64,000 bases of DNA, from contig CBFGTS010000001.1 of the NCBI GenBank assembly GCA_965652295.1, forward strand, positions 352,001 through 416,000, read 5' to 3'. Position 1 is the stretch's first letter. The number at the start of each line of letters is the position of its first letter. The position numbers were made by a program, and so were the translations under genes. This document shows, piece after piece, positions 6,108 to 30,454 of this stretch. The stretch comes from an uncultured Haloferula sp. Lineage in GTDB: Bacteria > Verrucomicrobiota > Verrucomicrobiia > Verrucomicrobiales > Akkermansiaceae. Under the pieces are notes generated by a model that did no database searches, was not told the origin of the DNA, and worked only from the letters and a program-made list of their open reading frames with translations.

Positions 6108-6246
6108 GAGCGCCGATTATGAAATCGGCATCGAAGGAGCGTTGGATGTGGCCTCCCGGTTGGGATGAACGGGCGGGTGAAGCTGTCTATCGAGAACAGG
6201 AAAGCTCGCCCGAGGAGGTGATGCCGATTTCATAATCGGCGCTCCT
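6104..6246. repeat. REPIN-like element: two inverted 27-bp arms, each a palindrome
   Basis: 6106-6132 aggagcgccgattatgaaatcggcatc is the exact reverse complement of 6220-6246. Each arm contains the hairpin gccgatt-N4-aatcggc. GTAG is at 6104-6107. Confidence 0.85.
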
Positions 6247-7969
6247 TTTGGGTGGAGAGAAACGCCTTCACTTCCTCAAGGCTGCGGGTGTTGAAGACGT
6301 CCTGTTTCCTCAGCCATCCTTTGCGGGCGATGCCGACGCCGAAGCTGAGGAACTGGAGTTGCTCGGGGCTGTGGGCATCGGGGTTGATCGAGGTCAGCAC
6401 GCCCTTGTCGCGGGCCTTTTTCCACCAGCGCCAATCCATATCGAGGCGCTTGGGCGCGCAATTCAACTCGATGATGGTGCGGGTGGCGGCGACGCAGTCG
6501 ATGATCTTGTCGTGGTTCACCGCGTAGGCGTCACGGCGGAGAAGGAGCCGGCCGGTGAGGTGGCCGAGCATGGTGATGTGCTCGTTCTCCATGGAACGGA
6601 TGAGCCGCCGGGTCATGGTTTTTTCATCGAGCGTGAAGGACGCGTGGACGGAGGCGACGGCATAGTCGAGCTGGGCGAGAACCTCGTCGGGGAAATCGAG
6701 CGAGCCGTCCTTGAGGATATCGACTTCCGAGCCAGCGAAGATCCAGAGTTCGTCGCCGCGCTGTGCGTTCCACGCGCGGATCTGCTCGACCTGCCTGAGC
6801 AGGCGTTCTTCGTTGAGACCGTTGGCTTGGAAAGAGGCCTTGGAGTGATCGGCGATGCCGAGGTAGCGGAGGCCGAGGTCAATGGCGGCTTCGGCCATTT
6901 CTTCCAGAGTGGCGCGGCCATCGGAGGCGGTGGTGTGGTTGTGGAAGGTGCCGCGGAGGTTCTCGAGCTCGACGAGTCGGGGGAGCTCGCCTTTGGCCGC
7001 GGCTTCGATTTCGCCGCGGTTCTCGCGGAGTTCGGGCGGGATGAATTCGAGGCCGAGGGCTTTGTAGATGCCGGCTTCGTCGTAAACTTCGGGGATCTCG
7101 CGATCGCCGGTGAAGCCGTATTCGTTGAGCGAGAGGCCCTGCTTGAGGGCGAGCGAGCGGAGGGCGACGTTGTGCTCTTTGGAGCCGGAGAAATACTGGA
7201 GGGCGAAGGGAAACTGGGCGTTCGAGACGGCCCGGAGGTCGCACTGGATGCCGTTGTCGAGACGGATGGAGCATTTGGTGTCGCCCTGCACGATGACTTC
7301 CGCGGCGAGGTCGAGCGTCGCGAACCAGGCGGTGAGTTCGGCGGGTCGGGTGGTGGCGGCGATGAAGTCGAGATCGCCAATGGTTTCCTTCGAGCGCCGG
7401 AGCGAACCGGCATACTGGGCGCGTAGTACCTCGGGGTGCTTGCGAAGCCTGCCGAGGATGAGCGCGGCGGCGTTGGTGGCGGTGGAGAGCAGGAAGCGGT
7501 TGGCGAAAGCTTTGCGGCGGGCGAGAGCCTCGAGGATTTTTTGCTCGGTCTTTTTTCCGAAACCGGAAAGCCCGGCGACCTTGCCGTCGAGGCAGGCGGT
7601 TTTGAGTTCAGGGATGGATCCGACGCCGAGTTCCTTGTGAAGAGCGGCGATCTTTTTCGGGCCGAGGCCTTCGACATCGAAGAGGTCGAAGAACGTGTCC
7701 GGGTATTGGGAGCGGAGGTTCTGGTGAAAGGCGAGCGTGCCGGTGGTGGCGAGTTCGTGGAGCTTTTGCTGGAGGGCGTCACCGATGCCTTTGATGCCGC
7801 CGAGGTCGTTGTCTTTGGCCCGTTGGACGATGTCGCCATCGAAGCCACGGACGATCTCGGCTCCCTGCCGGTAGGCGCGGGTTTTGAAAGGATTCTCGCC
7901 CTGGATTTCGAGGAGCAGGGCAATTTCCTCCAAGACTTCGGCGAGACTTTCGCGGGTAACGTCAGACAT
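6230..7969 (-). CDS. polX: DNA polymerase X family with C-terminal PHP domain
   Basis: N-terminal ENPFKTRAY, HhH motifs (GIKGIG, VEGLGPKK), catalytic GSLRR..GDLD and CDLR, and PHP motifs HNHT..SDG, DHS, GHLTGR, NPDAH. ATG at 7969. Confidence 0.93.
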   Translation of the reverse strand: MSDVTRESLAEVLEEIALLLEIQGENPFKTRAYRQGAEIVRGFDGDIVQRAKDNDLGGIKGIGDALQQKLHELATTGTLAFHQNLRSQYPDTFFDLFDVEGLGPKKIAALHKELGVGSIPELKTACLDGKVAGLSGFGKKTEQKILEALARRKAFANRFLLSTATNAAALILGRLRKHPEVLRAQYAGSLRRSKETIGDLDFIAATTRPAELTAWFATLDLAAEVIVQGDTKCSIRLDNGIQCDLRAVSNAQFPFALQYFSGSKEHNVALRSLALKQGLSLNEYGFTGDREIPEVYDEAGIYKALGLEFIPPELRENRGEIEAAAKGELPRLVELENLRGTFHNHTTASDGRATLEEMAEAAIDLGLRYLGIADHSKASFQANGLNEERLLRQVEQIRAWNAQRGDELWIFAGSEVDILKDGSLDFPDEVLAQLDYAVASVHASFTLDEKTMTRRLIRSMENEHITMLGHLTGRLLLRRDAYAVNHDKIIDCVAATRTIIELNCAPKRLDMDWRWWKKARDKGVLTSINPDAHSPEQLQFLSFGVGIARKGWLRKQDVFNTRSLEEVKAFLSTQKERRL

Positions 7970-8052
7970 GGAGGAAGGGAACCGCCAAGATGCCGGGAAC
8001 GCCAAGGTTTTTGGAAGGGAGGCGCCATCAGAGGCGTCTGGAGGTTTGCGCG

Positions 8053-9420
8053 CTACCCTGCGGAACCTGAGCCAGAAGGCTCGAATAGCCAGCCTTCCTC
8101 GACCGGCTGGTAACGAAACAATCCCTGGGTATCGAGAAACCGGCGAAGTTCCGCTTCTGAGGCGGAATTAATCGATTGCACCGGCCGCGTATGGACGACC
8201 GGCAGTGCATCGACGATGCCTTTCCTCCCCAGTGGCACGTAGTCGTATCCCCAACCGCTGCCGTTTTCCTCATCCAGATAGCTGTGGAACTCAGTCCACG
8301 CCTCTCTGGCGAACACAGGCGCCATGATCTCGACGAAGTTTGTGAGCCGCCCAACGACGGGTAGGGGTTCATCCGAATCCTTGAAGCGCCGCGGCAGGGG
8401 GCAGGCTCTCCAGGCTGTGATCCCGTGAGATAGTCCGTGAGGCGACTGAATCGCGGGCTGCGCTACCGAGAGGCGATTGGCGGTCATGATCCGAACGAAG
8501 CGAAGAGGGTCGAAGTCCTCACAGTCGAGATCGTCGTCCCAGTAGAAAATGAAGTCGTAGGCCGCGACCGTCTCTGGTGCCAAGTGACGGAGCGCCAGCT
8601 GCCATTTGTAGCCTCGGTCCTTGATGATTCTAGTTCCGGAGCGAACCTCCATTTCCGCGTCGTCGTATTGCAGGAGAAGGCAATCGGCTCCTGCTCTCTG
8701 GAAACATGTCAGAGCCCGCTCGACGAGTGGTTGAGCATTCACACCCACTGGGGAGGCGAACAGGATGCGCGGCTGGAAGCCTACTGGAAGCCTGCGAAGC
8801 CTTTCTTTTGCAGGCTGAATTGCCAGACACGGGACTGGATGATGCATTTTTCCCGGCACGTGCTTCACGGGCTCCTGCCAGTCCCAGGTATCGACGCTGT
8901 ACCAGCGATCACGTCGGTCCTCTGGAGTGAAGCCTCCTTCACCTCCGATATCCTCGATCTTCAGCCCTGCCTGGTCGATCAGTGTGGGAACCACCGCCTC
9001 ATGATGGCCGCCCCAGCCATTCTTGAGCCCCTCTACGACCGCCGCCGCAGCAGCCCGGCTCAGACGTGCGAGGGGCAGCATGGCGGCGATTCCGTCCGAC
9101 GTTGAATGATCTCCTGAAGCCTTCAGACTTCGCAACCAGTGCCAATCGGGCTCCTCAGTGCGGTGTCGCACCACGGTGGCGAGGAGGTCCGCATCGCAGC
9201 GGGAAAAACTTTCGAAAAATTCATCCCAATCTCCGTCGAAAAAGACCTGCTCGTCGATGAGCCAAAGGTACCGATCCTCGGTGGAAAGAAACGCTTCGAG
9301 CATCGCACCGAGCTTTTGCAGCGTAAGACCGGGGCCGGTTTCCAGAATGGCTTCCACGCTCGACCAAGAGTTTTCTTCATCGCGCTCGCCGGCGTTGTTT
9401 TCGAAAGGAATGGAATTCAT
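8053..9420 (-). CDS. Two-domain putative glycosyltransferase: DUF3405-like + DUF707-like
   Basis: N-half LWLIDEQVFFDG..DADLL..LPLARLS..GHHEAVVPT..KIEDIGG. C-half YDFIFYWDDDL..AQPAI..TNFVEIMAPVFAREAW..GWGYD resembles DUF707 (GT-A-like). Confidence 0.7.
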   Translation of the reverse strand: MNSIPFENNAGERDEENSWSSVEAILETGPGLTLQKLGAMLEAFLSTEDRYLWLIDEQVFFDGDWDEFFESFSRCDADLLATVVRHRTEEPDWHWLRSLKASGDHSTSDGIAAMLPLARLSRAAAAAVVEGLKNGWGGHHEAVVPTLIDQAGLKIEDIGGEGGFTPEDRRDRWYSVDTWDWQEPVKHVPGKMHHPVPCLAIQPAKERLRRLPVGFQPRILFASPVGVNAQPLVERALTCFQRAGADCLLLQYDDAEMEVRSGTRIIKDRGYKWQLALRHLAPETVAAYDFIFYWDDDLDCEDFDPLRFVRIMTANRLSVAQPAIQSPHGLSHGITAWRACPLPRRFKDSDEPLPVVGRLTNFVEIMAPVFAREAWTEFHSYLDEENGSGWGYDYVPLGRKGIVDALPVVHTRPVQSINSASEAELRRFLDTQGLFRYQPVEEGWLFEPSGSGSAG

Positions 9421-10763
9421 GACGGCTGTTTCTCGAAGTGGAAAGTCCCGGCGGCCTCACGGGATTCGCGGTGGAGATCCCATCGGCCGATGTTCGATCC
9501 AGGTGCGAATTTCCGGGCGAAGTAGCATCCGCTCTCCGCGATCTCGGCTGCGACTCTCGGAAGCACCTGATGAAATGTCTGGGGGTGAGCTCCTCCCCGC
9601 CAGCAGGTCCACGTGACGGGGCGATTGATGATGCTTTCGCCAGGAAACCGTCCTGAAGCGCTCAGCACCGTCGAGAAAAAACATTCGTCGGCCGCCCAGA
9701 CGTCTTTGAAGTGGGGCGACCAATCCTTCTCGCTCACGATCAGGGTATCCTTCCGGTTCAGACACATCCACTGGTCTTGAAACCAAGCATGCTCCTTCGG
9801 AATCCCCCACAACGCTTCCAACCGCAAAGCCTTTTCCCGGTTTCTCCAACTCTGGACCTGCTCAAGGGAGCGCATGGCGAGTCGTGAGCGTTCGTCCAAG
9901 CGAAGGCTTCGTGCCAGGGCGGAGAAGGGTCGGACAGGGACGCAGCTCTCGGAAACCAGAACGATGTGCGTCACATCGCCGTCCTCCAGTGCGGCCCGCA
10001 TCATCGCGAGAGTCGCTTCGACCAATGAAAACGCTCCCCAATCCGTATGGATGCGTTCGGTAACCTGCGCGTCCCGGAGAAACGATCCCTCGGGGAGTGA
10101 GTCGAGAGCCTTGGTATGAGCGTGAATCCTCGCTTGGGCACCAGCAGCAGCGAGGTACTCCCGCCAGATGTCCGGATGGTTCAGCTCGCCGCGTGTCAGA
10201 AAGAGACAAGCAACCGTCGGCGTGGGTGCCGGAATGTCCGTCTTCCAGACCGGGTCCCGAGGGTTCACAGGGTAGTGCAGCTTTCCGGGCACGAAACTCA
10301 CCGGTCCTTCCCAATGCCACGTCCGTTCGTCATACCAGCGGCCGACCTGACCCGGAGGTGTAAACGAACCCGCTCCGCCGATGTCTTCGATCTTCAGTCC
10401 GGCCCGGTTCACGAGCGTCGGGATCACTGCCTCCGGGTGCCCGTCCCAGCCCACGTCGAGACCCTTGAGGACCGCTTCCGCGGCTCCTCGGCTCATGCGG
10501 ATGAGCGGCAAAAGCATCGCCACGCCATGGACCAGCGGCTTTTCGCCTGCGGGTGCTCGCAGGCTCGACCACCAGTGCCAGCCCGGCTCTTCCGCATGAC
10601 GGCGCACGGCGGTGCCGAGCAGGTCGGCATCGGATTCTTCGAAGGCAGCTTCCAGGGTCTCGATTTCTCCGTCGAAGTGGACGCCTTCATCGACCAGCCA
10701 GAGGTGATTCGCCTCCGATTGGAGAAAGTCGTGTAGGACGGGAGTGACTTCTTTCAGGTTCAT
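9417..10763 (-). CDS. Two-domain putative glycosyltransferase: DUF3405-like + GT14/Core-2-I-branching domain
   Basis: N-half is paralogous to the previous ORF. C-half has LFLTRG, TDWGAFSLVEA, LVSESCVPV, QWMCLNR, DECFFSTVL, YFARKF (Branch/GT14). 4-bp stop/start overlap with the next gene. Confidence 0.78.
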   Translation of the reverse strand: MNLKEVTPVLHDFLQSEANHLWLVDEGVHFDGEIETLEAAFEESDADLLGTAVRRHAEEPGWHWWSSLRAPAGEKPLVHGVAMLLPLIRMSRGAAEAVLKGLDVGWDGHPEAVIPTLVNRAGLKIEDIGGAGSFTPPGQVGRWYDERTWHWEGPVSFVPGKLHYPVNPRDPVWKTDIPAPTPTVACLFLTRGELNHPDIWREYLAAAGAQARIHAHTKALDSLPEGSFLRDAQVTERIHTDWGAFSLVEATLAMMRAALEDGDVTHIVLVSESCVPVRPFSALARSLRLDERSRLAMRSLEQVQSWRNREKALRLEALWGIPKEHAWFQDQWMCLNRKDTLIVSEKDWSPHFKDVWAADECFFSTVLSASGRFPGESIINRPVTWTCWRGGAHPQTFHQVLPRVAAEIAESGCYFARKFAPGSNIGRWDLHRESREAAGTFHFEKQPS

Positions 10764-10798
10764 GAACCGTAGGGAAAAGGGCAATGCTGCCGAGGAAG

Positions 10799-12349
10799 TC
10801 AGAAGTCTTGCCACTCCCCATAGCGCTTCTTTCGCATCTGAAACTTCGCCTTGTTGATTCTCAAGAGCTTCATGGCGAGGTTGTTGGCGAAAGTGGCATG
10901 ATAGAAAACGGTGGCTTCAAAGACAGGTTGCTTTCCGAGCGTTCCGATTTGAGAAGAAAGCGCGCGGTGCTTGATGCCCAGCTCGTGGATCAAGCGATTG
11001 ATTTCTTCTTGATCCGCGTCGGCGATCCTCCCATGGCGGAGGCCCTTTAGAACGCGGGAGTAGAGAGTCACAATCTTCGGGCAGTTCTTGAGAATAATGA
11101 ATCCACAGTTGTAGTAGTTTGGCCTGTCCAGCAACGCTGAGAATTCGATGTTGTCCCGACGGGCGTCATTGATCATGGTCCGAACTTCGCTGGGCTTGAA
11201 AAAATGGATATCCACATCGCTGATAATGAGATATTCGTTATCGTCGATCTGATGCATCACCTCCAGTGCGAGCTCGACCTGATTGATCAGCATCTCGTAC
11301 CACGAGCGGGTCTGAAACCCGTGTTCGCTAAACGAACTCAAATCGACCTTCCGGTTGAACACCGTGATTCCTTGTCTGGCAGGATCAAGGCTGGCAAGGA
11401 AGCCCTCGTATAGGGGTTGGAGATTGCTCGAATGGACGGTGACGACCGTCAGAGGGTGCGCTGCGGTCCCGTTTGATGAAGGGGGTTCCTCGGGCGGCTC
11501 TTCCCGCTTCCGAAGCTCATTCCACAGGGCTTCGGCAGTTCGATTTAGCTGCGCTTCGACGGTGAGATGGGTCGCCGCAAAGCGCCGACCCTCGCGGCCG
11601 ATCAGATCGTACAGCTTCTCGTCGGCTTCCAGTCGTGCATGGTTCTCGAAGAGGTCGGAGAGGTCTTGTTTCACCGGGACAAAGTGAACCCACGGTTCCA
11701 GATCCTCGTGCCACGGTTCGATAATGGGGCGGTCTACGATGAAGAGCGGTCGTCCCGTCGCGAGCAACCACTTGACGCGTGCGGAGTAGCCGTTGCCGGG
11801 GCAGTCGATGAGGTACTTGTATCTGGCGTGATCGGGGATCGTCACGAGCCGGGTCTTGGAGCGGGGCTTGCCGGGTGAGCTGAAATCCCACTCCATCAGC
11901 TCGACATCGAAAAGGTCACGGTGCTCTCGTCCCAGCCCGCAGAGTGCGACGCGTGAGGGATGGGTGTTCGCGCCGATCCAGAACAAACGATCGTCTTCGT
12001 AGGGAGCCTGCGTTTGAAGCAGCTCGAGCATCATCGTTTCGGCGTCGTCGATGCCTGCCTCCGGCCAACGCAGGGTGTATGGGCAGGGAAAGGGAAGCGT
12101 GCTCGCGGATTGACCGGAGAAGCGAGTGGTGCTGAAGGCCAGGTCGTGGGCCTCGACCCAATGCAAGGGCGGAACTCCGTCGCGGAAAGCGATTCCTCCG
12201 CTCCGGCCCACCATCAAGTCCGGCCAATTCTGGACGAGATCGCAGAGCAGCTTCAAGGCGTTGTCCGGTCGGCATTGAAAGCCTTTCGCTGCGGTGATCA
12301 CAACGCGGTCCACGGCTTCAACCCGGAATGAAATCGTATTATCCTCCAT
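10799..12349 (-). CDS. Two-domain glycosyltransferase: GT90 (CAP10) + nucleotide-diphospho-sugar transferase (GT77-like)
   Basis: YKYLIDCPGNGYSARVKWLL..LEPWVHFVPVKQDLSDL is the GT90/CAP10 core. C-half has IISDVDI, NCGF, DQEEIN, FYHAT (GT-A, GT77/GT8-like). Confidence 0.78.
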   Translation of the reverse strand: MEDNTISFRVEAVDRVVITAAKGFQCRPDNALKLLCDLVQNWPDLMVGRSGGIAFRDGVPPLHWVEAHDLAFSTTRFSGQSASTLPFPCPYTLRWPEAGIDDAETMMLELLQTQAPYEDDRLFWIGANTHPSRVALCGLGREHRDLFDVELMEWDFSSPGKPRSKTRLVTIPDHARYKYLIDCPGNGYSARVKWLLATGRPLFIVDRPIIEPWHEDLEPWVHFVPVKQDLSDLFENHARLEADEKLYDLIGREGRRFAATHLTVEAQLNRTAEALWNELRKREEPPEEPPSSNGTAAHPLTVVTVHSSNLQPLYEGFLASLDPARQGITVFNRKVDLSSFSEHGFQTRSWYEMLINQVELALEVMHQIDDNEYLIISDVDIHFFKPSEVRTMINDARRDNIEFSALLDRPNYYNCGFIILKNCPKIVTLYSRVLKGLRHGRIADADQEEINRLIHELGIKHRALSSQIGTLGKQPVFEATVFYHATFANNLAMKLLRINKAKFQMRKKRYGEWQDF

Positions 12350-12354
12350 CGCGT

Positions 12355-13824
12355 TCAAATTCCTGCCCGGTGGAGCCCCCACTTAGCAATGTCCGAATTG
12401 GGTGGGAATTTTCTGGCGAAGAACCCGGGGAACGTAGCGAGGTCGATGGCCATTGAGCAATCGGTTTCCTTGTGGCACGTGGGCGTCGTGATGGGCCAAG
12501 TTTCCCATTTCAACCACGTAAGCGGAGTAAAGCGAACTCGTTCCTGTATCGGGAAACCTCGCATTGCAAGGACTGAGCCAAAGTAGTGCTCGTCTGGAGC
12601 TTCAATGGAGGAGAAATGCATGGTGAAATCATGTTCCGATACGCAGGAAGCGGCGGCGCGATCCAGTAAAACCCACTGCGAGTGTTTGAGCATAACGTTC
12701 TCGGGAAGTCGCCTTATCGACTGGAGCCTACGAAAATGCTTTTTCTGCATTGATGACGAATCTTCAAGATCCATCATTGAACGTGGGTCGATCCTTAAAA
12801 GGCGCTTCATTTCCCGCCAAGGCTTTATCGGGACGCAGCTCTCGGACACAAACGCGAAGTGAGTGATATCCGAATGAGCTAATCCTTCCCTGAGCAACGC
12901 CAGCATTGCCCGAACAAGTGAAATATCGCCCCAACACGTATCGTGCAGTTCAGGGATCAAATAGGGCGTAAGAATCCCCGCTTCTCCAGGAGTCTTGACA
13001 TGAGCCAACGCCGTGACGTCGCCGATTGCTCCTTCGAGAAACTCTTTCCAGATTTCTGGATGATTGACATTACCCCGGGTGAGAAACAGCAGGCCGAGCT
13101 TCGGCGGAGCGGGATCTGATGGCTGCGTTTCGTTGGGATTCCAACGGCTGCCTCCCCAAACTTCTGCGTGAAAGCCTCTGAGCGGGTCGGGCCGAGCTGG
13201 AGTGTCGCCATTGTCACAATCGGCTTCATGAGCCGGAGACGGATAAGAAGGCTCGGTCTCCCGCACGAGGTCGGGGTAGCACGCATAGATTGGAACGCTC
13301 TGCAGCAGGCCTCCAAACAGGGAATCGGCACTGTAGGAATGGCATGAGCAGGCCTGGGTGCAAGCTTTCAGCGCTGCGAGGACCTGCTTGTAGTAGGGTG
13401 CGCGTACTGCGAAAGCGTAGGTACCGGATGCGTCGGTGACCTTGACGATTCCTTGAGAGTAAGGGAGCGGGCGTTCACGGTGGGTGCATCCGAGAAGAAG
13501 AATCCCCCAGTCGTCCGGAAGATCGACTTCGTCGAGGATGGATTTGATGTCCGGTCGGAACGTCACATTGTCTCCCAACAGGAGGACGGCGTCGGCGCTC
13601 GCTAGCATTGCGCTGCGAAGCGCCAGTCTTTGAGTGAGCGTATGCGCATAGCTCTCGGGATTCGAGTGGCCCCGTGTGTTCTTCACAAACCTTGCGTCGA
13701 TGGCCCGGAAACGCTTGGCCGGGAGGTCGGCTCTTTCGAGCGCCTCCTCCATCGCGAAACGTCGTTCCTGATTGCGTCCAAGGTTGGTCCAGTAGACTAA
13801 AGAAAATGTCGTCTCGGTATTCAT
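12355..13824 (-). CDS. Two-domain glycosyltransferase: GT25-like + GT14/Core-2-I-branching domain
   Basis: N-half WTNLGRNQERR..RFRAIDA..DWGILLLG..GTYAFAV is GT25-like, with EDD replaced by GDN. C-half has LLFLTRG, TCWGDISLVRA, FVSESCVP, SQWVLL, PDEHYF, FFARKF. Confidence 0.78.
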   Translation of the reverse strand: MNTETTFSLVYWTNLGRNQERRFAMEEALERADLPAKRFRAIDARFVKNTRGHSNPESYAHTLTQRLALRSAMLASADAVLLLGDNVTFRPDIKSILDEVDLPDDWGILLLGCTHRERPLPYSQGIVKVTDASGTYAFAVRAPYYKQVLAALKACTQACSCHSYSADSLFGGLLQSVPIYACYPDLVRETEPSYPSPAHEADCDNGDTPARPDPLRGFHAEVWGGSRWNPNETQPSDPAPPKLGLLFLTRGNVNHPEIWKEFLEGAIGDVTALAHVKTPGEAGILTPYLIPELHDTCWGDISLVRAMLALLREGLAHSDITHFAFVSESCVPIKPWREMKRLLRIDPRSMMDLEDSSSMQKKHFRRLQSIRRLPENVMLKHSQWVLLDRAAASCVSEHDFTMHFSSIEAPDEHYFGSVLAMRGFPIQERVRFTPLTWLKWETWPITTPTCHKETDCSMAIDLATFPGFFARKFPPNSDIAKWGLHRAGI

Positions 13825-13839
13825 GAGCGATTCTTCAGG

Positions 13840-14700
13840 TCAGGCTTCAAGAAGATCCAACAACAGGCCACCCGCGTCCCCGTAAGTTTTCATCATATGA
13901 AGGGCGAAGGCCAGGTTGATCTTCTCCCGTTGATCGCCGCCAACAAAATGCAAGAGCGCTGCATGTTGGTAATCAAGGAAACCTGGGTTGAGGTGGAAGG
14001 GGAACATGATTTCGCCCTTCTCAAAAGTTCCGACTCGGAGCGTGGTATCCAGCAAGAGTCGGTTCCACGCCGTTTGGTCCCGCATGTCCGGATGTCGAGC
14101 CGGAGTCCTTTCAAAGATCTCCCTCCACTGGGCCATCACCTCGTGGTAGTGTCGTGCCCTGATCGCAACGGTGCCTGCGTTGATCCCGTGCCCATAGGCC
14201 CTCAGCCATTGGTTCCGCTCCGGTTGAAGACTCTCTTTGGCTCCGATATAGCCGTTGAATGCGCGGGAATGGAGCATGCTTCGTCCTGCCTCTGGTTGAA
14301 CGAGGATGTCGGCGTCACTATCGAAAAGATGATCCAGGTTGCGCAGTCCGAGGCAGTCTGCATCAAAATAGCCGATCCATTCATAGGGTGATGGATCGAT
14401 CATTTCCGCCGCGAGAAAACGGTAGGCAAGTGCCGAGAGCAAGCAGGCCTTGCCCCGATTCTGACTTCCCTCGACCTCCGGCGTCTCGACAAAAACTTCT
14501 TCGAGCCCGGGTCGCTGGACCGGAAATAAGGGCTCCGCAAAGTTCCTGAAGACAACGATGTCCCCGCTCCAGAAATGCCGCAGCAATGAGGCGCATAAGA
14601 GCTTCGCCATCGTTCGGCTACCGCGCCATCCCGGAGGGGTGAAAGCTACCGTGTAGATCAAACTAGGTTTTTGAAGGGAGCGTTCGTGGGAGGCGGGCAT
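13840..14700 (-). CDS. GT-A fold glycosyltransferase (GT8/GT34/GT77-like)
   Basis: DxD motif YFDADC, GINAGTV, DQTAWN, LLHFVG. Start is uncertain (14700 ATG, 14766 ATG or 14778 TTG). Confidence 0.72.
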   Translation of the reverse strand: MPASHERSLQKPSLIYTVAFTPPGWRGSRTMAKLLCASLLRHFWSGDIVVFRNFAEPLFPVQRPGLEEVFVETPEVEGSQNRGKACLLSALAYRFLAAEMIDPSPYEWIGYFDADCLGLRNLDHLFDSDADILVQPEAGRSMLHSRAFNGYIGAKESLQPERNQWLRAYGHGINAGTVAIRARHYHEVMAQWREIFERTPARHPDMRDQTAWNRLLLDTTLRVGTFEKGEIMFPFHLNPGFLDYQHAALLHFVGGDQREKINLAFALHMMKTYGDAGGLLLDLLEA

Positions 14701-14796
14701 ATTTTTTTGCGTGGATCTACGCGATTTCAGGTTGACGACTGCTAGGTTCCTCGTTAAAGGCTTCATCCCGTAGTTCAAACCTTCCTAAAACAAGCC

Positions 14797-15135
14797 ATGA
14801 ATTCCGAAGAAGTAGTGCCGACACCGTTAAGGGGCAGTCAACAAGAAATCAGCGCAGAAGGCCACGAATGGAATACCGGGATGACCCGGCGGCGGTTCCT
14901 TAGAAGGACGGGTGGAGCGACCGTCGCTTCCATGGTGGCTTGGCATGCGTCAGGAACAGCGGCGTGGGCGGGTGGTGAGGGTGGTGGCAGTTCGGGTGGC
15001 AGTTCGGGTGGCAGTTCGGGTGGCAGTTCGGGTGGCAGTTCGGGTGGCAGCGGTGGACATTGGGCGGACTACGGTCCTGACGGGAAATGTAAAAAATGCG
15101 GTGCCACCAGCGGAATGTACCATATCCCCTTCTGA
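14797..15135 (+). CDS. Small protein with twin-arginine-like signal, (GGSS)n tract and C-terminal CxxC
   Basis: MTRRRFLRRTGGATVASMVAW..AWA matches S/T-R-R-x-F-L, followed by a hydrophobic stretch and AxA. Then GGSS x5 and GKCKKCG. Confidence 0.65.
   Translation: MNSEEVVPTPLRGSQQEISAEGHEWNTGMTRRRFLRRTGGATVASMVAWHASGTAAWAGGEGGGSSGGSSGGSSGGSSGGSSGGSGGHWADYGPDGKCKKCGATSGMYHIPF
14983..15050 (+). repeat. 12-bp perfect tandem repeat (ggtggcagttcg) x5 plus 8-bp partial
   Basis: Five identical units read directly from the sequence, in frame, encoding Gly-Gly-Ser-Ser. Confidence 0.95.
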
Positions 15136-15434
15136 GCCTTGGATTGCTGTCTCGCATTGATAGATTCAAGATCCGATAATTGAGTTATGTAGTTTAATTG
15201 GATCGAGAAATGCTTGGGAGCTGCGGTATGGTGTTTCGGAAATACGGAACGACAACTTCATATTGTTTTGGTCGTATGACTCGTCGGTCCCTTCCTTGAT
15301 TTCGACATCGCGACATACCTGCCTGTAGCGCATGGTCTTGAGAGCCAACATCGTCTTTCTTTGCGGCGAAGGCCTTTCCCAGAAGGGAACCGCCACCTTC
15401 CCCATGGTGGGGTGTATGTATTTGTTCCTCATTA

Positions 15435-15940
15435 GGTGGGAGAGCAGGTTCGGCCGGGGAGGTGTTGTGAGGGGTGAGAAGCGGCTTCGCAGCTACCGAC
15501 CGCCGCACCTGCCGGCGGCTATTCAAGCAGTGATTCTCAACGAAGCTGTCCGCCCGCCCAAGCACCCGACCGGCTGGCGCACCCGCCCCATGGCTAAAGC
15601 CCACGGAGCCTCAAAGGCCAGTTGTCACCGCTTCTGGACAGCTATTGGCATCAAGCCGGACCACTCTTGGACCTTCAAGTTTTCCATCGATAACGGCTTC
15701 GAACCGAAGTTGTGGGACGTCATCGGTCTGTATTGGAATCCTCTTTGCCAAGCCTTGGCGCTCTCCTGCAACGAGAAAAGCCGGTGCCAAGCTCTCAAGC
15801 ACACGCAACAACCCGGCTTGCCACTGGAAGCTTCACGAGCATTGAGGAGATCAATCAAGCCATCGGAGCCTACCTGTCCCGCGCCCGATAGGAGCCCAGG
15901 CGCTACGTCTGGAAAGCCGAATGTAGCGAAACTCACACTA
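15435..15940 (+). pseudogene. IS630-family transposase remnant with internal deletion
   Basis: KPDHSWTFKFSIDNGFEPKLWDVIGLYWNP..LSCNEKSRCQALKHTQQPGLPL resembles the IS630 N/central region, with the catalytic DEK read as NEK. It jumps to a C-terminal GSFTSIEEINQAIGAYLSRAR*EPRRYVWKA in another frame, which has an internal stop. Confidence 0.85.
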
Positions 15941-16081
15941 CGATCCATCATTTTTTTTCAGTTCCTCATGAACCCTTCCGGTGATGATGATTGGTTATTT
16001 GGTAATCTCTGTAATAGTCGATTGTGGGCATTGAGCCGTGTGAGTGAGGAATGGGAACCTAATGCATCTAATATCAGTTAA

Positions 16082-17263
16082 ATGATGAAACCAGGAACTT
16101 GCTATCTAGTCGTCATTTCTTCCGTGGTTCTATCAGGTTTGGCTGGATATTATATCGGAGCCGAACGGCAAATGGATACGTGGAGGAAAGGACGAGCATC
16201 TCAGGACAACGCATCCATGGTTCACGGAGGCCCGGGGGATTCATGGTCTAAAAGGGAGCATTTAAACGCGCGAAGAATGGAGCGCGATAAAGCCTCAAAC
16301 ACAAACAAGAAAGATGTTCATATTTCCCCTGATGAGGCAAAGGAAATGATGCGTAACGCAGCCATGATAACCGATCAGCGGGAGAAGGCGGCCGCTTATC
16401 GAAATATAATGAGGCGGCTTTGTGAGGCGGGATACACAGAAGACGCATGGCAGCTAATTGTGGAGGATCCGGGTTTGGTTCGCGACGCGCAAGTTTATGA
16501 ATTTTTTACGAGTTCGACACTCGCGTTGTCAACGTGTCTTTCAAAAGTGGCGATGCTTCGGGATGACTCGGAAATGAAGACGGCTTTAGCAGGTTATCTT
16601 CAAAATAACCTTCACGACATTAATCGAATTGTGAATGATTATGGCTTTGTGGAGATTACTAATCGACTTAACGAGAAGGATTCACATGCATTGGACGAAA
16701 TTCTCACGTCGGCCCTCCGAATGAGTTTTGATAATGCGTCCTCAGAGGAGCGAAAGGAAGAAGTTAATCAGATGGTTATTGATTATCATAAAAAGGGGAT
16801 TGTTTCCAATTCTGATTATGCGACATTTATTGCCAGAAACATTAATTCCAATGAGCCATTTGACATGTGGCAATGGATCTCGGATTCTTCTATGGGTGTG
16901 TCGAGTCCAGAAGGAAGCTTCGAGTCTCAAGCTCGAGCTGCTATTGTTGGTTCAATGGTGAACCAGGACCCCGAGAAAGCGATGGCCCAATTGAAGGCGT
17001 CTAGTAGTGATGGCTCTTCCTATGATTTGTATCTCGGATTGGAGTCATGGACAAAAACTGATCCTGGAGCCGCATATAATTGGTTTGATGATAATAGAGC
17101 GTCATTAACTGCGGACCAACAGGATTCAGCTGCCCGTGCTTTCGCGGTCAATGCTTTAGCTTTCAGAGAATTCGAAGGGGCTGAGCGGTGGGTTGAAAAA
17201 ATAAAAAATGAAGATCTTAGATCTGATTTGTTGAAGAAAATCAAATTAGGCTTAAGCGAATAG
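16082..17263 (+). CDS. Hypothetical AT-rich protein, N-terminal anchor, predicted alpha-helical
   Basis: 393-aa ORF in the most AT-rich DNA of the window. N-terminal hydrophobic helix; repeated DP..A..W motifs (QDPEKAMAQL, WTKTDPGAAYNW). Confidence 0.75.
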   Translation: MMKPGTCYLVVISSVVLSGLAGYYIGAERQMDTWRKGRASQDNASMVHGGPGDSWSKREHLNARRMERDKASNTNKKDVHISPDEAKEMMRNAAMITDQREKAAAYRNIMRRLCEAGYTEDAWQLIVEDPGLVRDAQVYEFFTSSTLALSTCLSKVAMLRDDSEMKTALAGYLQNNLHDINRIVNDYGFVEITNRLNEKDSHALDEILTSALRMSFDNASSEERKEEVNQMVIDYHKKGIVSNSDYATFIARNINSNEPFDMWQWISDSSMGVSSPEGSFESQARAAIVGSMVNQDPEKAMAQLKASSSDGSSYDLYLGLESWTKTDPGAAYNWFDDNRASLTADQQDSAARAFAVNALAFREFEGAERWVEKIKNEDLRSDLLKKIKLGLSE

Positions 17264-17525
17264 GTCGCGTGGATCAAATGGTTAACGCAACAAACTTATT
17301 AAAGTTTTAAGGGGGTAAGCACCGCCGAGTGCTGTCGGTCGCCGAGTGCTGTCTGTTCTTGGGTTGACGGCATGGTTGGGTGGCATAGGCGACAGCGGAT
17401 CGGTCGGACTTGGCTACCGGGTGCTTGGTGCGGTGCGCGTCGGCCCAAATGGACGGAAGCAGGGCGGGGTTAATCCTGAGAAAATATCTGATTGCTAAGA
17501 GTCGGGCTGATTCATAAAAACGCGA

Positions 17526-19682
17526 ATGCATCGAGGGTATCAGGTGGTTGCGGTCACTTCATTTGGACGATCACGATATACCGATCTACTCGCATCTATC
17601 ACTCGGAGTTGCTGGTTGATCGACCGGCACGAGCTGTGGATGAACACGGAGGATGCGGACGACCTTGCGGCGGCGGATCGGTATTGTGCGGAACATCCCG
17701 ATTTTTTTGTCAAGGTGGAGAGCTCTATGCCCTACGGCAACGGGATGGGGGGCGCGCGACTCGCCTCGTTCTGGCGGCTGTTGGAGGACGATCCGAAGAC
17801 GATTTACCTGCGCTTCGACGACGACATCGTCTGGATGGCGGATGATGCGGTGCAGCGCTTGTTGGATTTCCGGATCGATCATCCTGACTTCTTCCTGGTG
17901 TTTGCCAATACGCTGAACAATTCGCTTTGCTCCCACCTCCATCAGCGGCTCGGAGCTCTGCCGCCAGCTCCATTTCTCGAATACACCTGCTGCGGCGAAC
18001 GCTCTTGGCGACGGTGGGAGACGGCGGATGAGGTGCATCGGCGGTTTTTCGAGGCGATGGAGTGTGGCCAATTGGACCGGTTCAAGTTTCCGGCTTGGGA
18101 GCTGGTCGGCTACGAGCGCTTTTCGATCAACTGCATGGCCTGGTTCGGAGCGGATAATAGAGCGATTCGTGACCGCATGACCGATAGCGAGGAGATCTGT
18201 TTGACGGAGCAGATCCCGAGGCAGTTGGGGCGACGGAACGTCATCGTTGGGGATGCGCTGGTTTCCCATTTCGCCTATTATCCCCAACGGGAGGCATTGG
18301 AGGCGAACACGGGTTGGTTGTCGCGCTATTGGGATCTGGCTCGATCGAAAGGGATCATTGCCAGGGATGGACAACCGCGTGAGGTCGTAACGAAGACCCC
18401 TCAGATCCCGGTCCGGGAACGATTCCTCATTCTTACCCGCCGGAGCGGCAGCGCCGCGGAGCGCTTGGTCAGAGTCTTGAAACCGCTGGGAAAGGTGGAG
18501 GTGGTGGTGGATGAACTCCCGGCGGTGGAAGAGCTTCCTGCCAATCAGGTCTGGATTGCGGCCGAGGACGTGGAGGCGTTTGTCGGAGCGACAACTCCGG
18601 CGCTTCCCAGGACGACGGCTTGGGAGCGGGCACTTGCCCATCTTGAGCGGAGTTTTAATCCAAAAGAGGCGGTCTGGTTCGTGGAAGATGATGTGGCGGG
18701 TGAGGCGGAAGTATTCGCCCGCTTGGTGGCTGCTACTCGAAGACTGAATCCCGGGCTGGCGGCCACCGACGTGGTTTCCAAAGGTGAAGAGCCGGGATGG
18801 CACTGGTGGGAGCTTCTGAGGGAAGAGGACGGGATCTCAGAACCATGGAGGGCGTTTCTGCCTCTGTGTCGGCTGCGGCCTGAGCTGGTAAGAGAGGTGC
18901 TGAATTTTCGGAAAGCGCGGGGACGCATGCTACTGCACGAGATCTTGTTCGCCTCGCTTGCCAAAAGTTCGGGGATGTGGTGCCTCGACTGGAAGGTGCA
19001 TCCGGGGACTGCCCAGCATTTTGGGGCATTCCGATTTCGCCCTGAGGTGGATCGGTGGGTGCGTGGCATCTCCCACCCGGTGAAGGATCAGGACGTTCAT
19101 TGCGCCGTGTGTGAGGGAGGTTTGGATCCTTACCTTCGGATCGGAAGGGCGAATCTCGAAGGGTGGTCCATCCTTGCTGATGATTACCGGTTCCTCGTGA
19201 GCTACTGCCGTGAGAATGGGATCAAGCGGGTCGTCGAATTTGGCCCGGGAGACTCGACCTTGGCATTCCTCGACGCCGGATGTGAGATCCTATCATTCGA
19301 GCATAGCCAAGAATGGCTGCATAAGGTGGCGGCGCGTTTTTCCGGGGAGCTTCGTTTGGAGCTGGACTATTGCCCCGAAGATGCAGTTCCGGACCGGGCA
19401 ACATTGGGCTTTCAACCGGATCTGGTTTTTGTGGACGGTCCGCCGCTCCGAGAGGGACAAACGATGTCCCGGCTGGGGCCATGCGAGTGGGCGCTTGAGC
19501 AGTATGGGCGATTTCTTCTGCACGATGCAAAGCGCCCTGCGGAGCAGGCGACCTTGGCTGAGATGGAGAGGCGAGGAATGAGAGTGATCCGGATCGATAC
19601 CGAAAAGGGTCTGGCGCTTGTTGAGGCAGATCCGGCCGATGGGAGAGGGCTCCGCGGCAGGGATCGGGAGGCCTCGGGCTGA
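17526..19682 (+). CDS. Three-domain protein: GT-A-like + DUF3405-like + class I SAM methyltransferase
   Basis: IYLRFDDDIVWM..ANTLNN (DxD). Middle AWERAL..VWFVEDDV..WHWW..FLPLCRL..HEILF. C-terminal VVEFGPGDST, SFEH, LVFVDGPP, LLHDAKR. Confidence 0.75.
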   Translation: MHRGYQVVAVTSFGRSRYTDLLASITRSCWLIDRHELWMNTEDADDLAAADRYCAEHPDFFVKVESSMPYGNGMGGARLASFWRLLEDDPKTIYLRFDDDIVWMADDAVQRLLDFRIDHPDFFLVFANTLNNSLCSHLHQRLGALPPAPFLEYTCCGERSWRRWETADEVHRRFFEAMECGQLDRFKFPAWELVGYERFSINCMAWFGADNRAIRDRMTDSEEICLTEQIPRQLGRRNVIVGDALVSHFAYYPQREALEANTGWLSRYWDLARSKGIIARDGQPREVVTKTPQIPVRERFLILTRRSGSAAERLVRVLKPLGKVEVVVDELPAVEELPANQVWIAAEDVEAFVGATTPALPRTTAWERALAHLERSFNPKEAVWFVEDDVAGEAEVFARLVAATRRLNPGLAATDVVSKGEEPGWHWWELLREEDGISEPWRAFLPLCRLRPELVREVLNFRKARGRMLLHEILFASLAKSSGMWCLDWKVHPGTAQHFGAFRFRPEVDRWVRGISHPVKDQDVHCAVCEGGLDPYLRIGRANLEGWSILADDYRFLVSYCRENGIKRVVEFGPGDSTLAFLDAGCEILSFEHSQEWLHKVAARFSGELRLELDYCPEDAVPDRATLGFQPDLVFVDGPPLREGQTMSRLGPCEWALEQYGRFLLHDAKRPAEQATLAEMERRGMRVIRIDTEKGLALVEADPADGRGLRGRDREASG

Positions 19683-19687
19683 GCGCA

Positions 19688-19707
19688 TCCCCCTGAAGGG
19701 GGACTAC
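19688..19707 (-). repeat. GTAG-type REP-like palindrome
   Basis: Minus strand reads GTAG-tccccc-ttca-ggggga (6-bp stem, 4-nt loop), between convergent genes. Confidence 0.55.
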
Positions 19708-19732
19708 GTACAGAGGCGGCGGGCTTGTGAGG

Positions 19733-20752
19733 TCATTCGAGGATCAGATCCGCGACGACGAAGCGATGGTCCGAGTGGCGGGTGGTCACGGCGCGGCAGC
19801 CGATGGGCCTGAAGTGGCGGGTGGCGTGGATCTGGTCGATGCGAAGGACCGGGATGCGGCGCTGATAGGTGTTGCCCCAGCCGGTGCCGGCTTCGGCGAA
19901 TGCATCCTGGAAGTCCCGCGCCATCAGGCGGTGGATGGGATCGGTGGGCGGGGCGTTGAAGTCGCCGCCGAGGATGACCGGCTGCGCGCCGGGGAAATCA
20001 CAGGTTTCCTCCAGGATGCGGAGGGCGACGGATGCTTCGAAGTGGCGCTTGCGGCGGTTCTCACGATGGATGCGCCAGCAGGAGGGACGCCAGAGGCTGA
20101 GGTCGGTGGCGGCGGAGGAAAGGTGGAGGTTGGCGACTTCGATCGTCCGGCCATCGGGCAGGCGGACGGTGACGTTGTGATTGAAGAAACGGAACTTGAG
20201 GTTGGGGTTCCGGACCTCGCGGATGATCGGCCAGCGGCTGGCGATGCCATTGAGCGCGTAGCTGCGGTAGTGGGAGTCGGCCCCGAAGATGGTGTCGGAG
20301 ATGTGCTTCACCCGGACGGCATCGATTTCCTGGAGCAGGAGGATGTCCGGCTGCCAGACGGCGAGATCGGCGGTGGGATCGCCGTATCTGAAATAGGCGG
20401 TGTTGAGGGTGGCGATGCGGATCGGTTTGACGCCATTGAGGGCGGCGGCGGGACCCGGTTCCGGCGTGCGGGCCCCGAAGTGACCGATGACGCGGGCTTC
20501 GTCCGCGCCGAGGAAAAGGGTGAGCGCCCAGATGGTGGTGACGACCAGCGAGAGGGGGGCGCGGAGGGCGAGGAAAGCGAGCGAGGAGGCGAACAGCCCG
20601 AACCCGCCCCAGACCCAGATGGGCATCACGGTGAACGCCGCCAGCACCGAAGGCTGGCGGTAGTAGGCGAAGACGGTGATGAAATGGAGCGCCAGCGAGA
20701 GGCCGATGAGGATCCAGCCGACTCGGCGCACGGTGCGGGTGGAGCGAGGCAT
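19733..20752 (-). CDS. Endonuclease/exonuclease/phosphatase family protein with N-terminal TM helices
   Basis: IATLN, DILLLQE, ILGGDFN, RIDQI and SDH motifs; three hydrophobic helices at the N-terminus. Confidence 0.88.
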   Translation of the reverse strand: MPRSTRTVRRVGWILIGLSLALHFITVFAYYRQPSVLAAFTVMPIWVWGGFGLFASSLAFLALRAPLSLVVTTIWALTLFLGADEARVIGHFGARTPEPGPAAALNGVKPIRIATLNTAYFRYGDPTADLAVWQPDILLLQEIDAVRVKHISDTIFGADSHYRSYALNGIASRWPIIREVRNPNLKFRFFNHNVTVRLPDGRTIEVANLHLSSAATDLSLWRPSCWRIHRENRRKRHFEASVALRILEETCDFPGAQPVILGGDFNAPPTDPIHRLMARDFQDAFAEAGTGWGNTYQRRIPVLRIDQIHATRHFRPIGCRAVTTRHSDHRFVVADLILE

Positions 20753-20807
20753 GGATCCTGGGGCTGGCGGGTGAACTGGGCTTGGCGGATGAAATCCGCC
20801 GCCACGA

Positions 20808-21113
20808 TCAAAGCCCGGGGATGCCAAGCCCGCCGGTGAGCTTCTTCATCTCGGTAGCGGTGGCTTCCTTACCTTTGGCGATGGCTTCCTGGACGCCCTT
20901 GAGAACGAGGTCCTGGAGAAACTCGACGTCGCCGGGATCGACCACGGCGGGATCGATGGTGATGGCGGTGACGTCGCCGGCACCGGTGGCGGTCACGGTG
21001 ACTTTATCGCCGCCGACGGAGGCGGTGAACTCCATGGCAGCGAGTTCTTCCTGCTTGGCGAGCATGCCGGCCTGCATCTGCTGGGCCTGCTTCATCATTT
21101 TGGCGAGGTTCAT
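20808..21113 (-). CDS. ybaB: YbaB/EbfC nucleoid-associated protein
   Basis: MMKQAQQMQ..GGDKVTVT..G..IDPAVVDPGDVEFLQDLV; directly downstream of dnaX, the usual context. Confidence 0.95.
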   Translation of the reverse strand: MNLAKMMKQAQQMQAGMLAKQEELAAMEFTASVGGDKVTVTATGAGDVTAITIDPAVVDPGDVEFLQDLVLKGVQEAIAKGKEATATEMKKLTGGLGIPGL

Positions 21114-29785: not shown

Positions 29786-30454
29786 TCAGGCTTGGCGGAT
29801 GGCTTGGATGGCTTCGGCCATGTCCGGGGCGCGGAAGGTGGACGAGCCGGCGACCATGACATTGGCCCCGGCGCGGGCGCAGCGGCCGGCGGTTTCAGCG
29901 ACGATCCCGCCATCGACTTCGATGTGGAAACCGAGCCCGCGGAGGTCGCGCGCGGCGGCGGCGGCTTCGATTTTCGGCAAAACCTCGGCCATGAACGATT
30001 GCCCGCCGAAGCCGGGGACGACGGTCATGCAGAGCAGCAGGTCGATGTGATCGAGGTGCGCCTCGACCTCTTCGAAAGGCGTGGCGGGGTTGAGCGCGAG
30101 CCCGGCCTGGCAGCCGGCGGCGCGGATCCGGCGGAGCGTGTCGGCCACGTCGTGATCGGCCTCGACATGCACGGTGATGAGGTCGGAGCCGGCGGCGATG
30201 AAACGGTCGAGATAGTGGTCCGGCCGGCTGAGCATGAGGTGGACATCGAGGAAGATGTCGTTGGTTTCATGCACGGTCTGGACGACGGCGGGGCCGAAGG
30301 AAATGTTGTCGACGAAGTGGCCGTCCATGATGTCCATGTGCAGCCAGTCGGCTCCGGAGCGGATGGCGCGGGATACTTCTTCGCCGAGCTTGGAGAAGTC
30401 GGCGGCGAGCAGGGAGGGCGCGATGACGCGGTCGCGGCAGGTCGGGGGAATCAT
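29786..30454 (-). CDS. rpe: Ribulose-phosphate 3-epimerase
   Basis: IAPSLLAADF, HMDIMDGHFVDNISFG, DVHLM, MTVVPGFGGQ, IEVDGG, VAGS. Confidence 0.96.
   Translation of the reverse strand: MIPPTCRDRVIAPSLLAADFSKLGEEVSRAIRSGADWLHMDIMDGHFVDNISFGPAVVQTVHETNDIFLDVHLMLSRPDHYLDRFIAAGSDLITVHVEADHDVADTLRRIRAAGCQAGLALNPATPFEEVEAHLDHIDLLLCMTVVPGFGGQSFMAEVLPKIEAAAAARDLRGLGFHIEVDGGIVAETAGRCARAGANVMVAGSSTFRAPDMAEAIQAIRQA

What the first reader, a model, noticed from the sequence alone, without database searches (positions are those of the whole stretch)
14797..15135. Tat-signal (GGSS)5 mini-protein divergent from the GT operon: candidate glycosylation substrate
Seen: the gene is transcribed divergently from the five-GT operon across under 100 bp. 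It has a TRRRFL twin-arginine motif and an AWA cleavage-like site, leaving a ~54-aa mature part that is mostly Gly/Ser plus CKKC. Known: animal GT14 xylosyltransferases initiate glycans on Ser-Gly dipeptides (e.g. serglycin), and Tat exports folded or modified cargo. Inference: this may be a proteoglycan-like or RiPP-like glycopeptide, glycosylated in the cytoplasm by the neighbouring GT14/GT90 enzymes (which show no obvious signal peptides) and then exported. The substrate link is speculative.
Basis: partly seen in the sequence, partly recalled or inferred. Interest (0 to 1): 0.7.

Follow-up and report, generated by a model that had tools for sequence, protein, structure and literature searches.

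The report
Glycosyltransferase-linked polymorphic twin-arginine protein family
This tiny gene is real and is a short member of an apparently undescribed bacterial protein family whose members share an export-type leader and a serine patch, swap their tail domains freely, and sit beside sugar-attaching enzymes and a matching membrane-anchored partner, which points to sugar-tagged secreted proteins, possibly for competition or recognition between related bacteria.

Summary
The ORF is as described: 112 aa, TRRRFL, AWA, a perfect 12-bp repeat of 5.7 copies, CKKC. It is not a lone glycopeptide. Its leader defines a family of 320 protein clusters in Verrucomicrobiales; 150 examined carry 94 unrelated, almost all unannotated C-terminal cargos. 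This one is a short His/Cys-knuckle type. The link to the glycosyltransferases is real. All 26 leader-bearing genomes of 401 have the adjacent GT-A enzyme (50 of 401 do), and 18 of 38 loci show the same divergent layout. The constant enzymes are that GT8/GT6-like protein and a GT25-GT14 fusion, not GT90. (GGSS)5 is not conserved, but serine just after the predicted cleavage site is (119 of 129, against 5 of 21 other Tat-like proteins). Best model: cytoplasmic O-glycosylation of the serine patch, Tat export, then binding by the cognate partner (immunity or anchoring). Glycosylation, export and toxicity are inferred, not shown. This copy may be decaying (IS630 remnant, degenerate GT25 motif).

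The parts
14797..14970 (+). Conserved family leader: N-region, twin-arginine motif at 14884, weakly hydrophobic helix, AWA cleavage-like site
14971..15057 (+). Gly/Ser linker: a tandem-repeat expansion (12 bp x 5.7, 14983-15050) of the family's post-cleavage serine patch; candidate glycan acceptor
15058..15135 (+). 25-aa His/Cys tail (His88, Cys98, Cys101, His109), a shortened member of the short His/Cys cargo class; possible zinc knuckle (inferred)
13840..14700 (-). GTa: GT-A-fold enzyme (GT8/GT6-like, DAD motif intact here); the most constant companion of the leader family
12355..13824 (-). GTb: GT25-like plus GT14-like (Branch) fusion, second core enzyme; its GT25 acidic motif is degenerate in this copy (GDN for EDD)
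10799..12382 (-). GT90 (POGLUT/Rumi-like) plus a second GT-like domain; accessory
9417..10814 (-). Unknown domain plus GT14-like (Branch) domain; accessory
8053..9420 (-). Unknown domain plus DUF707; accessory
15332..16081 (+). IS630-family transposase remnant between the mini-gene and its partner
   Evidence: E 4e-7, below cut-off; single copy in the genome
16082..17263 (+). Cognate partner: 393 aa, one N-terminal hydrophobic anchor, no known family; its relatives follow short His/Cys cargos
17526..19682 (+). 718-aa multidomain accessory protein (GT-like parts and a methyltransferase-like C-terminus by eye; no Pfam or NCBIfam hit)
14728..14760 (+). TTGAC-containing promoter-like site about 66 bp before the start, also seen before the closest relative L059; not picked up by the consensus scan
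   Evidence: by eye; 0 promoter hits

Best explanation
The gene encodes the cargo of a three-part system of Verrucomicrobiales: (1) a protein with a conserved twin-arginine leader, a serine patch and a swappable C-terminal cargo; (2) a cytoplasmic glycosylation cassette whose core is GTa plus a GT25(-GT14) enzyme, with variable accessory GTs and methyltransferases; (3) one or two cognate membrane-anchored proteins encoded just downstream. Shown: the family, the cargo diversity, the genomic linkage, the serine patch and the cargo-partner pairing. Inferred: the GTs O-glycosylate the serine patch in the cytoplasm (about 0.55); the folded, glycosylated protein leaves by Tat and is cleaved after the Ala-x-Ala site (about 0.75); the partner binds its cargo outside the inner membrane (about 0.6), most likely as immunity to a polymorphic antibacterial effector (about 0.4) or as a surface anchor (about 0.3). 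Here the cargo is a 54-aa peptide with 12 serines and a small His/Cys knuckle.
For: Family: 320 clusters at E<=1e-3; 150 proteins give 94 cargo groups, 67 singletons. Only one leader hit in the own genome although about 21 crude Tat-like proteins exist there, so it is not a generic Tat signal. GT link: leader in 26 of 401 genomes of the order, GTa in 50 of 401, all 26 among the 50; GTb or its GT25 half in 20 of the 26; a GT within 5 kb at 24 of 38 loci, divergent within 1.5 kb at 18. At 20 further GTa loci, 16 from genomes without a leader hit, 9 had a leader-like gene at 10 bits or more, against 0.027 expected per 13 kb from the own-genome background. Serine: at least one Ser at positions 30-39 after the first Arg in 119 of 129 members, 62-87 of 129 in other 10-residue windows, 5 of 21 in control Tat-like proteins. 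Three genomes have leader genes whose whole mature part is 7-10 Ser/Gly/Thr-rich residues, beside GTa. Enzymes: GT90 matches POGLUT1 (E 8e-16), GT25 matches COLGALT1 (E 1e-7), GTa weakly matches glycogenin and a Skp1 galactosyltransferase (E 4e-4). Partner: 38 of 45 leader genes have one, 34 of 38 with a hydrophobic N-terminal stretch of 1.8 or more, 11 lipobox-like; the window's partner family was found only at L047, L053 and L061, all with short His/Cys cargos. Tandem cargo-partner arrays and doubled partners occur (L041, L060, L089; L045, L048, L050, L052, L072). TatC is present.
Against: No expression, glycosylation or export data. 14 of 38 leader loci have no GT within 5 kb, so action in trans must be assumed; 10-11 of the 20 extra GTa loci have no leader gene. 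Related genomes are not independent. The GTa profile was built from leader-adjacent copies, so (22 of 30) is partly circular. Ser/Gly-rich linkers after signal peptides can arise without glycosylation, and the control set is small and crude (21). No cargo has a confident toxin domain: among 149 proteins the only non-signal Pfam hit is a sub-threshold Tlde1 match (E 0.006), 0 of 19 more cargos hit, and PDB searches found nothing. The leader's h-region is weak; TAT_signal hits 21 of 149, only 2 over cut-off. The DxD of GTa is degenerate in several loci and the GT25 motif is degenerate here. Across 38 cargo-partner pairs most partner similarities (27 of 30) have no cargo blast match. The window tail's likeness to the His/Cys class rests on CxxCG alone (rank 1 of 137 and 2 of 145, 7-9 bits).
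Confidence: 0.5

Rival explanations
1. Same family and partner, but the GTs make a lipid- or cell-wall glycan (for example a variable surface antigen or the cargo's receptor) and do not modify the cargo. The genes travel together because the glycan type gives self-protection or self-recognition, as recalled for Bacteroides BSAP toxins lying beside O-antigen GT variants.
For: GT25, GT8, GT14, GT32, GT4 and methyltransferase families also build surface glycans (established knowledge); accessory enzymes vary between loci; GTa-GTb pairs occur with no adjacent leader gene.
Against: No flippase, polymerase or sugar-pathway gene was noticed beside the loci I listed (not searched systematically). The core GT pair stays constant while cargos are unrelated. 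The serine patch and the leader-plus-tiny-core genes are unexplained. Leader similarity tracks GTa similarity (rho 0.37, n 39), though linkage confounds this.
Confidence: 0.25
2. One reading: a stand-alone proteoglycan-like or RiPP-like glycopeptide whose (GGSS)5 is the product, glycosylated by GT14/GT90.
For: Seven Ser-Gly dipeptides in an unstructured stretch, which is what XT1/XT2 need (PMC10570366, passages seen); tiny-core members exist; one distant locus (L149) pairs a leader-like Cys-rich precursor with a ranthipeptide-type radical SAM enzyme and the GTs.
Against: Repeat not conserved; most members carry large cargos; GT90 near 4 of 45 loci; GT14 domain has no match to solved XylT; the model ignores the cognate partner.
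Confidence: 0.1
3. This copy is a decaying remnant: the family is real but the gene here is shortened and cut off from its partner.
For: An IS630 remnant puts 947 bp between gene and partner; 36 of the 37 other pairs lie within 190 bp or overlap. The tail lacks the hairpin and first Cys of relatives. The GT25 motif is degenerate. The island is low in GC.
Against: All reading frames are intact; leader and GTa DAD are intact; the partner is full length (393 aa, like L047 and L053); the same sequence is in contigs of another study; short members are common (44 of 150, 18 His/Cys).
Confidence: 0.2

Closest known systems
Dedicated cytoplasmic glycosylation of exported proteins: HMW1/HMW1C, EtpA/EtpC, AIDA/BAHT (PMC8151025, passages seen); serine-rich repeat proteins with GtfA/B and accessory Sec (recalled)
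   Same: Linked cytoplasmic GT genes beside an exported, Ser-rich substrate; variable accessory GTs.
   Different: Those use Sec or accessory Sec and large adhesins (the review says no T5SS protein is known to use Tat); different GT families; no swappable cargo with a cognate partner.
Polymorphic toxin systems (MafB/MafI, CDI, Rhs; Tat-exported umbrella toxins) (recalled)
   Same: Conserved export leader, hypervariable C-terminus, cognate gene directly downstream, tandem cassettes, low-GC island, patchy distribution.
   Different: No known toxin domain passes a cut-off; leader is only about 58 aa; a GT cassette is attached; toxicity untested.
Glycocins such as sublancin (SunA/SunS/SunI) (recalled)
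   Same: Leader plus small Cys-containing core, dedicated GT, membrane-anchored immunity-like protein.
   Different: Twin-arginine rather than double-glycine leader; no peptidase-ABC exporter noticed; most cargos are 100-400 aa; GT families differ.
Animal proteoglycan and EGF-repeat glycosylation (XT1/2 GT14, POGLUT GT90, COLGALT GT25)
   Same: Same GT families side by side; Ser-Gly in an unstructured stretch.
   Different: Cytoplasmic and bacterial; GT14 domain did not match solved XT1; no EGF repeat or collagen; donor and acceptor unknown.

Membership tests
Tat substrate | S/T-R-R-x-F-L-K motif | tested here: met
   TRRRFLR here; R 100%, R 96%, F 96%, K 90% in 150 members
Tat substrate | Hydrophobic h-region and AxA site | tested here: inconclusive
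   Ala at +26 49% and +28 74%; hydropathy only 0.79; TAT_signal no hit here, 21 of 149 weak, 2 over cut-off; SignalP not available
Tat substrate | Tat machinery in the genome | tested here: met
   TatC E 3e-63
Tat substrate | RR-dependent export | not testable with these tools
   needs experiment
Polymorphic toxin system | Conserved N-terminus with unrelated C-termini | tested here: met
   94 cargo groups among 150
Polymorphic toxin system | Cognate gene directly downstream that varies with the cargo | tested here: met
   38 of 45; window partner family only with short His/Cys cargos, 4 loci; 3 of 4 cargo-similar pairs with partners also share partner similarity
Polymorphic toxin system | Recognisable toxin domains | tested here: not met
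   One sub-threshold Tlde1 hit in 149; 0 of 19; no PDB match
Polymorphic toxin system | Toxicity neutralised by the partner | not testable with these tools
   needs experiment
Glycocin / RiPP | Double-glycine leader with peptidase-ABC exporter, or match to a curated RiPP precursor or enzyme model | tested here: not met
   No NCBIfam hit for the peptide, GTa or GTb; none of the window genes from 6230 to 20827 that were scanned is such an exporter
Glycocin / RiPP | Leader bound by the modifying enzyme | not tested
   No usable result here; see Tried and rejected
Serine-rich repeat protein with GtfAB and accessory Sec | Very long Ser repeats, cell-wall anchor, GT4-type GtfA/B | tested here: not met
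   112 aa, no anchor; core GTs are GT-A fold and GT25-like; accessory Sec genes not searched
Peptide O-xylosyltransferase (GT14) substrate pair | GT14 enzyme similar to XT1/XT2 | tested here: inconclusive
   Pfam Branch E 1e-13 and 5e-19 but no hit to solved GT14 enzymes; by recall the motif looks closer to plant GT14-like DUF266, whose distant relation to GT14 is stated in PMC7866395 (passages)

The most novel reading that the evidence does not exclude
A new kind of bacterial effector system: a conserved twin-arginine leader directs a cassette of eukaryote-like protein glycosyltransferases (GT8/GT6-, GT25-, GT14-, GT90-like) to build a proteoglycan-like chain on a serine patch, and any cargo fused behind it, from an 8-residue peptide to a 400-residue domain, is glycosylated in the cytoplasm, exported folded by Tat and captured by a cognate membrane protein. 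It would be both a glyco-tagged polymorphic toxin or kin-recognition system and a portable tag for making O-glycoproteins in bacteria.
Probability: 0.3. Interest if true: 0.88.

Novelty: new variant of a known kind. Interest (0 to 1): 0.72.

Why it matters
It would give a function to bacterial GT14/GT25/GT90-like enzymes whose best-studied relatives glycosylate animal proteins, and would couple cytoplasmic glycosylation to Tat export, a pairing I did not find in the searches made. It also exposes about a hundred unannotated cargo families with cognate partners in common soil and water Verrucomicrobiales. The window's peptide (12 serines, 54 aa) is a very convenient substrate for an intact-mass test.

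Tried and rejected
Paralogue search in the own genome: none. Word-index protein search with the peptide: no hit; with the partner: only itself. Complex prediction GTa plus leader: no answer, score 0.00 against a mark of 0.32; not evidence either way. Fold of a cargo group with hairpins that looked pore-former-like by eye: pLDDT 37, unusable, not searched further. ESM Atlas: partner and one cargo reach only unnamed clusters. PDB sequence searches for cargos P0080 (lysozyme-like by eye), P0102 and alignment A4: nothing useful. Sequencing runs: no RNA holder listed; contigs collapse the repeat to 42 bases, so copy-number variation could not be read. Promoter scan: 0 hits. Truncation by frameshift: no continuation in the other frames after the stop. 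GTa in a 351-genome phylum sample: only the own genome and one of its genus. Literature searches found no description of this system; some searches were seen as listings, three papers as passages; no supplements were read, and subscription papers are not covered. Earlier scan notes: nothing by sequence or place or by two word sets. Rows dropped before counts: P0007 (5650 aa, repeat artefact); L058, L075, L083 (duplicates of loci already held); loci whose leader scored under 28 bits were left out of the 45-locus set; 7 loci with under 1 kb upstream and no GT were left out of the 38; L141 was skipped.

Full report
1. The ORF at 14797-15135 (+) encodes 112 aa with TRRRFL, an AWA site after residue 58 and a 54-aa remainder with 21 Gly, 12 Ser and 7 Ser-Gly dipeptides. 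The repeat is a perfect 12-bp unit, 5.7 copies. Five GT-like genes run the other way from about 14700 to 8053, 96 bp away with the likely ATG. None has an N-terminal hydrophobic stretch or RRxF. The region 8000-19500 is lower in GC (0.43-0.63) than most of its flanks (about 0.6-0.7). A contig from an independent study is identical over 15056-15308, so the stop codon is real.

2. It belongs to a large unannotated family. The peptide has no paralogue in its genome and no Pfam or NCBIfam hit. Its first 67 residues match N-termini of longer proteins in related genomes. A profile of 11 such leaders found 320 clusters at 50% identity. In the best 149 plus this one the leader is very conserved (R100, R96, F96, K90, R90, G98, A92 per cent), while the cargos fall into 94 unrelated groups, median 178 aa. 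Pfam gave only weak TAT_signal hits (21 of 149) and one sub-threshold Tlde1 hit. The leader was found in 11 of 35 genomes of the genus and 26 of 401 of the order. Named relatives are Haloferula chungangensis and Verrucomicrobiales MAGs. Of 150 members 44 are short and 18 of those have a His..Cys-x-Cys tail, often behind a Pro/Ser- or Gly/Ser-rich linker. The window's tail ranks 1 of 137 and 2 of 145 against profiles of that class, with 0-1 of 300 shuffles as good, but only 7-9 bits, resting on CxxCG. So the repeat is a linker expansion and CKKC belongs to a probable small metal knuckle (inference).

3. The GT link is real, with a different core than proposed. Among 38 leader loci with enough flank, 24 have GTa, GT25 or GT14 within 5 kb and 18 have it divergent within 1.5 kb. 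In the same 401 genomes GTa occurs in 50, including all 26 leader genomes; GTb or its GT25 half occurs in 38, including 20 of the 26. GT90 is near only 4 of 45 loci. Starting from GTa, 22 of the 30 best loci have a leader-like gene within 1.5 kb, but that profile was built from leader-adjacent copies. A fairer set of 20 loci, 16 from genomes with no leader hit, gave 9 at 10 bits or more plus one seen by eye; the own-genome background predicts 0.027 per 13 kb. In a 351-genome phylum sample GTa was found only in this genus. Kin are not independent, so these counts overstate significance. Leader similarity follows GTa similarity (rho 0.37, p 0.001, n 39), which linkage alone could give.

4. The enzymes. 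GTa folds confidently (pLDDT 89.7) as GT-A, nearest GT6 and UGGT structures, with weak sequence matches to glycogenin and a Skp1 galactosyltransferase; several orthologues have lost the DxD. The N-domain of GTb matches procollagen galactosyltransferase and mimivirus R655; here its acidic motif is degenerate. The GT90 matches POGLUT1, POGLUT2 and Rumi. The GT14-like domains hit Pfam Branch but no solved GT14 enzyme. Accessory genes vary: GT32-like, GT4, DUF707, DUF3431, methyltransferases.

5. A conserved serine patch. Serine is 17-23% at positions 30-39 after the first Arg, 3-12 residues past the predicted cut, against 6-8% beyond position 60 and 8-12% at 40-59. At least one Ser is there in 119 of 129 members and two or more in 76, against 62-87 and 20-46 in other windows, and 5 and 0 of 21 crude Tat-like controls. 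In three genomes the leader is followed by only 7-10 Ser/Gly/Thr-rich residues and a stop, beside GTa; these could be minimal substrates or truncations. Animal xylosyltransferases act on Ser-Gly in unstructured regions (PMC10570366, passages), but plain flexible linkers look similar.

6. The missed partner. Of 45 leader genes 38 are followed on the same strand by a protein of 140 aa or more; six of the other seven lie near a contig end. Of the 38, 34 have a hydrophobic N-terminal stretch of 1.8 or more and 11 a lipobox-like motif; none of 41 partners scanned passes a Pfam cut-off. The window's partner is 16082-17263, behind an IS630 remnant. Among all loci held its family appeared only at L047 (31%), L053 and L061 (24%), each with a short His/Cys cargo. 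Tandem cargo-partner units and doubled partners occur. This is the layout of polymorphic toxin-immunity loci (recalled), but no cargo is a recognisable toxin.

7. Mechanism. Most likely the precursor is glycosylated on its serine patch in the cytoplasm by the core GTs, extended by accessory enzymes, exported folded by Tat (TatC present), cleaved, and bound by its partner, as immunity or as an anchor. Overall confidence 0.5. Rivals: the GTs make a surface glycan and are only co-inherited (0.25); this copy is decaying (0.2, compatible with the family model); a stand-alone GT14/GT90 glycopeptide (0.1).

8. Comparison and verdict. It works like HMW1/HMW1C-type dedicated cytoplasmic glycosylation (PMC8151025, passages) combined with a polymorphic effector layout, and fails the membership tests for glycocins, serine-rich repeat proteins and known toxin families. 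Eight literature searches and the scan's own notes found no description; the library lacks most subscription papers. Verdict: real gene, apparently undescribed system, substrate link plausible but unproven. Interest 0.72.

Noticed in passing
L149:6776-10104 (G017): A leader-like gene with a Cys/Asp-rich 170-aa core is followed by a ranthipeptide-type radical SAM/SPASM gene (best PapB, E 3e-72, below cut-off), an unknown gene, GTa and GTb: a possible RiPP and glycosylation hybrid.
   Followed up: partly
L102:8950-9140, L108:1230-1430, L134:7140-7330: Leader genes with only 7-10 residues after the predicted cut, beside GTa; in L134 two radical SAM genes, one near the RiPP C-methyltransferase cut-off, lie divergent.
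   Followed up: partly
L072, L073, L078, just upstream of the leader gene start: Three to four tandem copies of a 7-8 bp unit directly before the ATG; could tune expression by slippage.
   Followed up: no
L048 versus window 8053-19682: Accessory GT genes are 80-86% identical to the window's, while GTa (32%), GTb (40%), cargo and partner differ: modules are exchanged separately.
   Followed up: partly
GTa orthologues in L044, L046-L048, L063, L072, L073, L076, L078: Short GTa forms with altered DxD pair with leaders lacking the Trp-Asn before the RR; all 13-14 Trp-Asn leaders pair with long, intact GTa. Possible pseudo-enzyme; confounded by kinship.
   Followed up: partly
P0085: Leader fused directly to a partner-like sequence, probably by deletion of the cargo.
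   Followed up: no
P0071, P0072; P0031, P0046, P0055, P0066, P0148: Cargos with a hydrophobic helical pair and an aromatic C-terminal strand, and cargos with alternating Ser/Thr hairpins; membrane-inserting by eye only, the fold attempt failed.
   Followed up: partly
window 30076-30154 (+): ARAGORN calls a tRNA-like gene with an undefined anticodon.
   Followed up: no
window 1985-5494 (+): A 1169-aa ORF that by recall resembles the pyrophosphate-dependent PEP carboxykinase family; not scanned.
   Followed up: no
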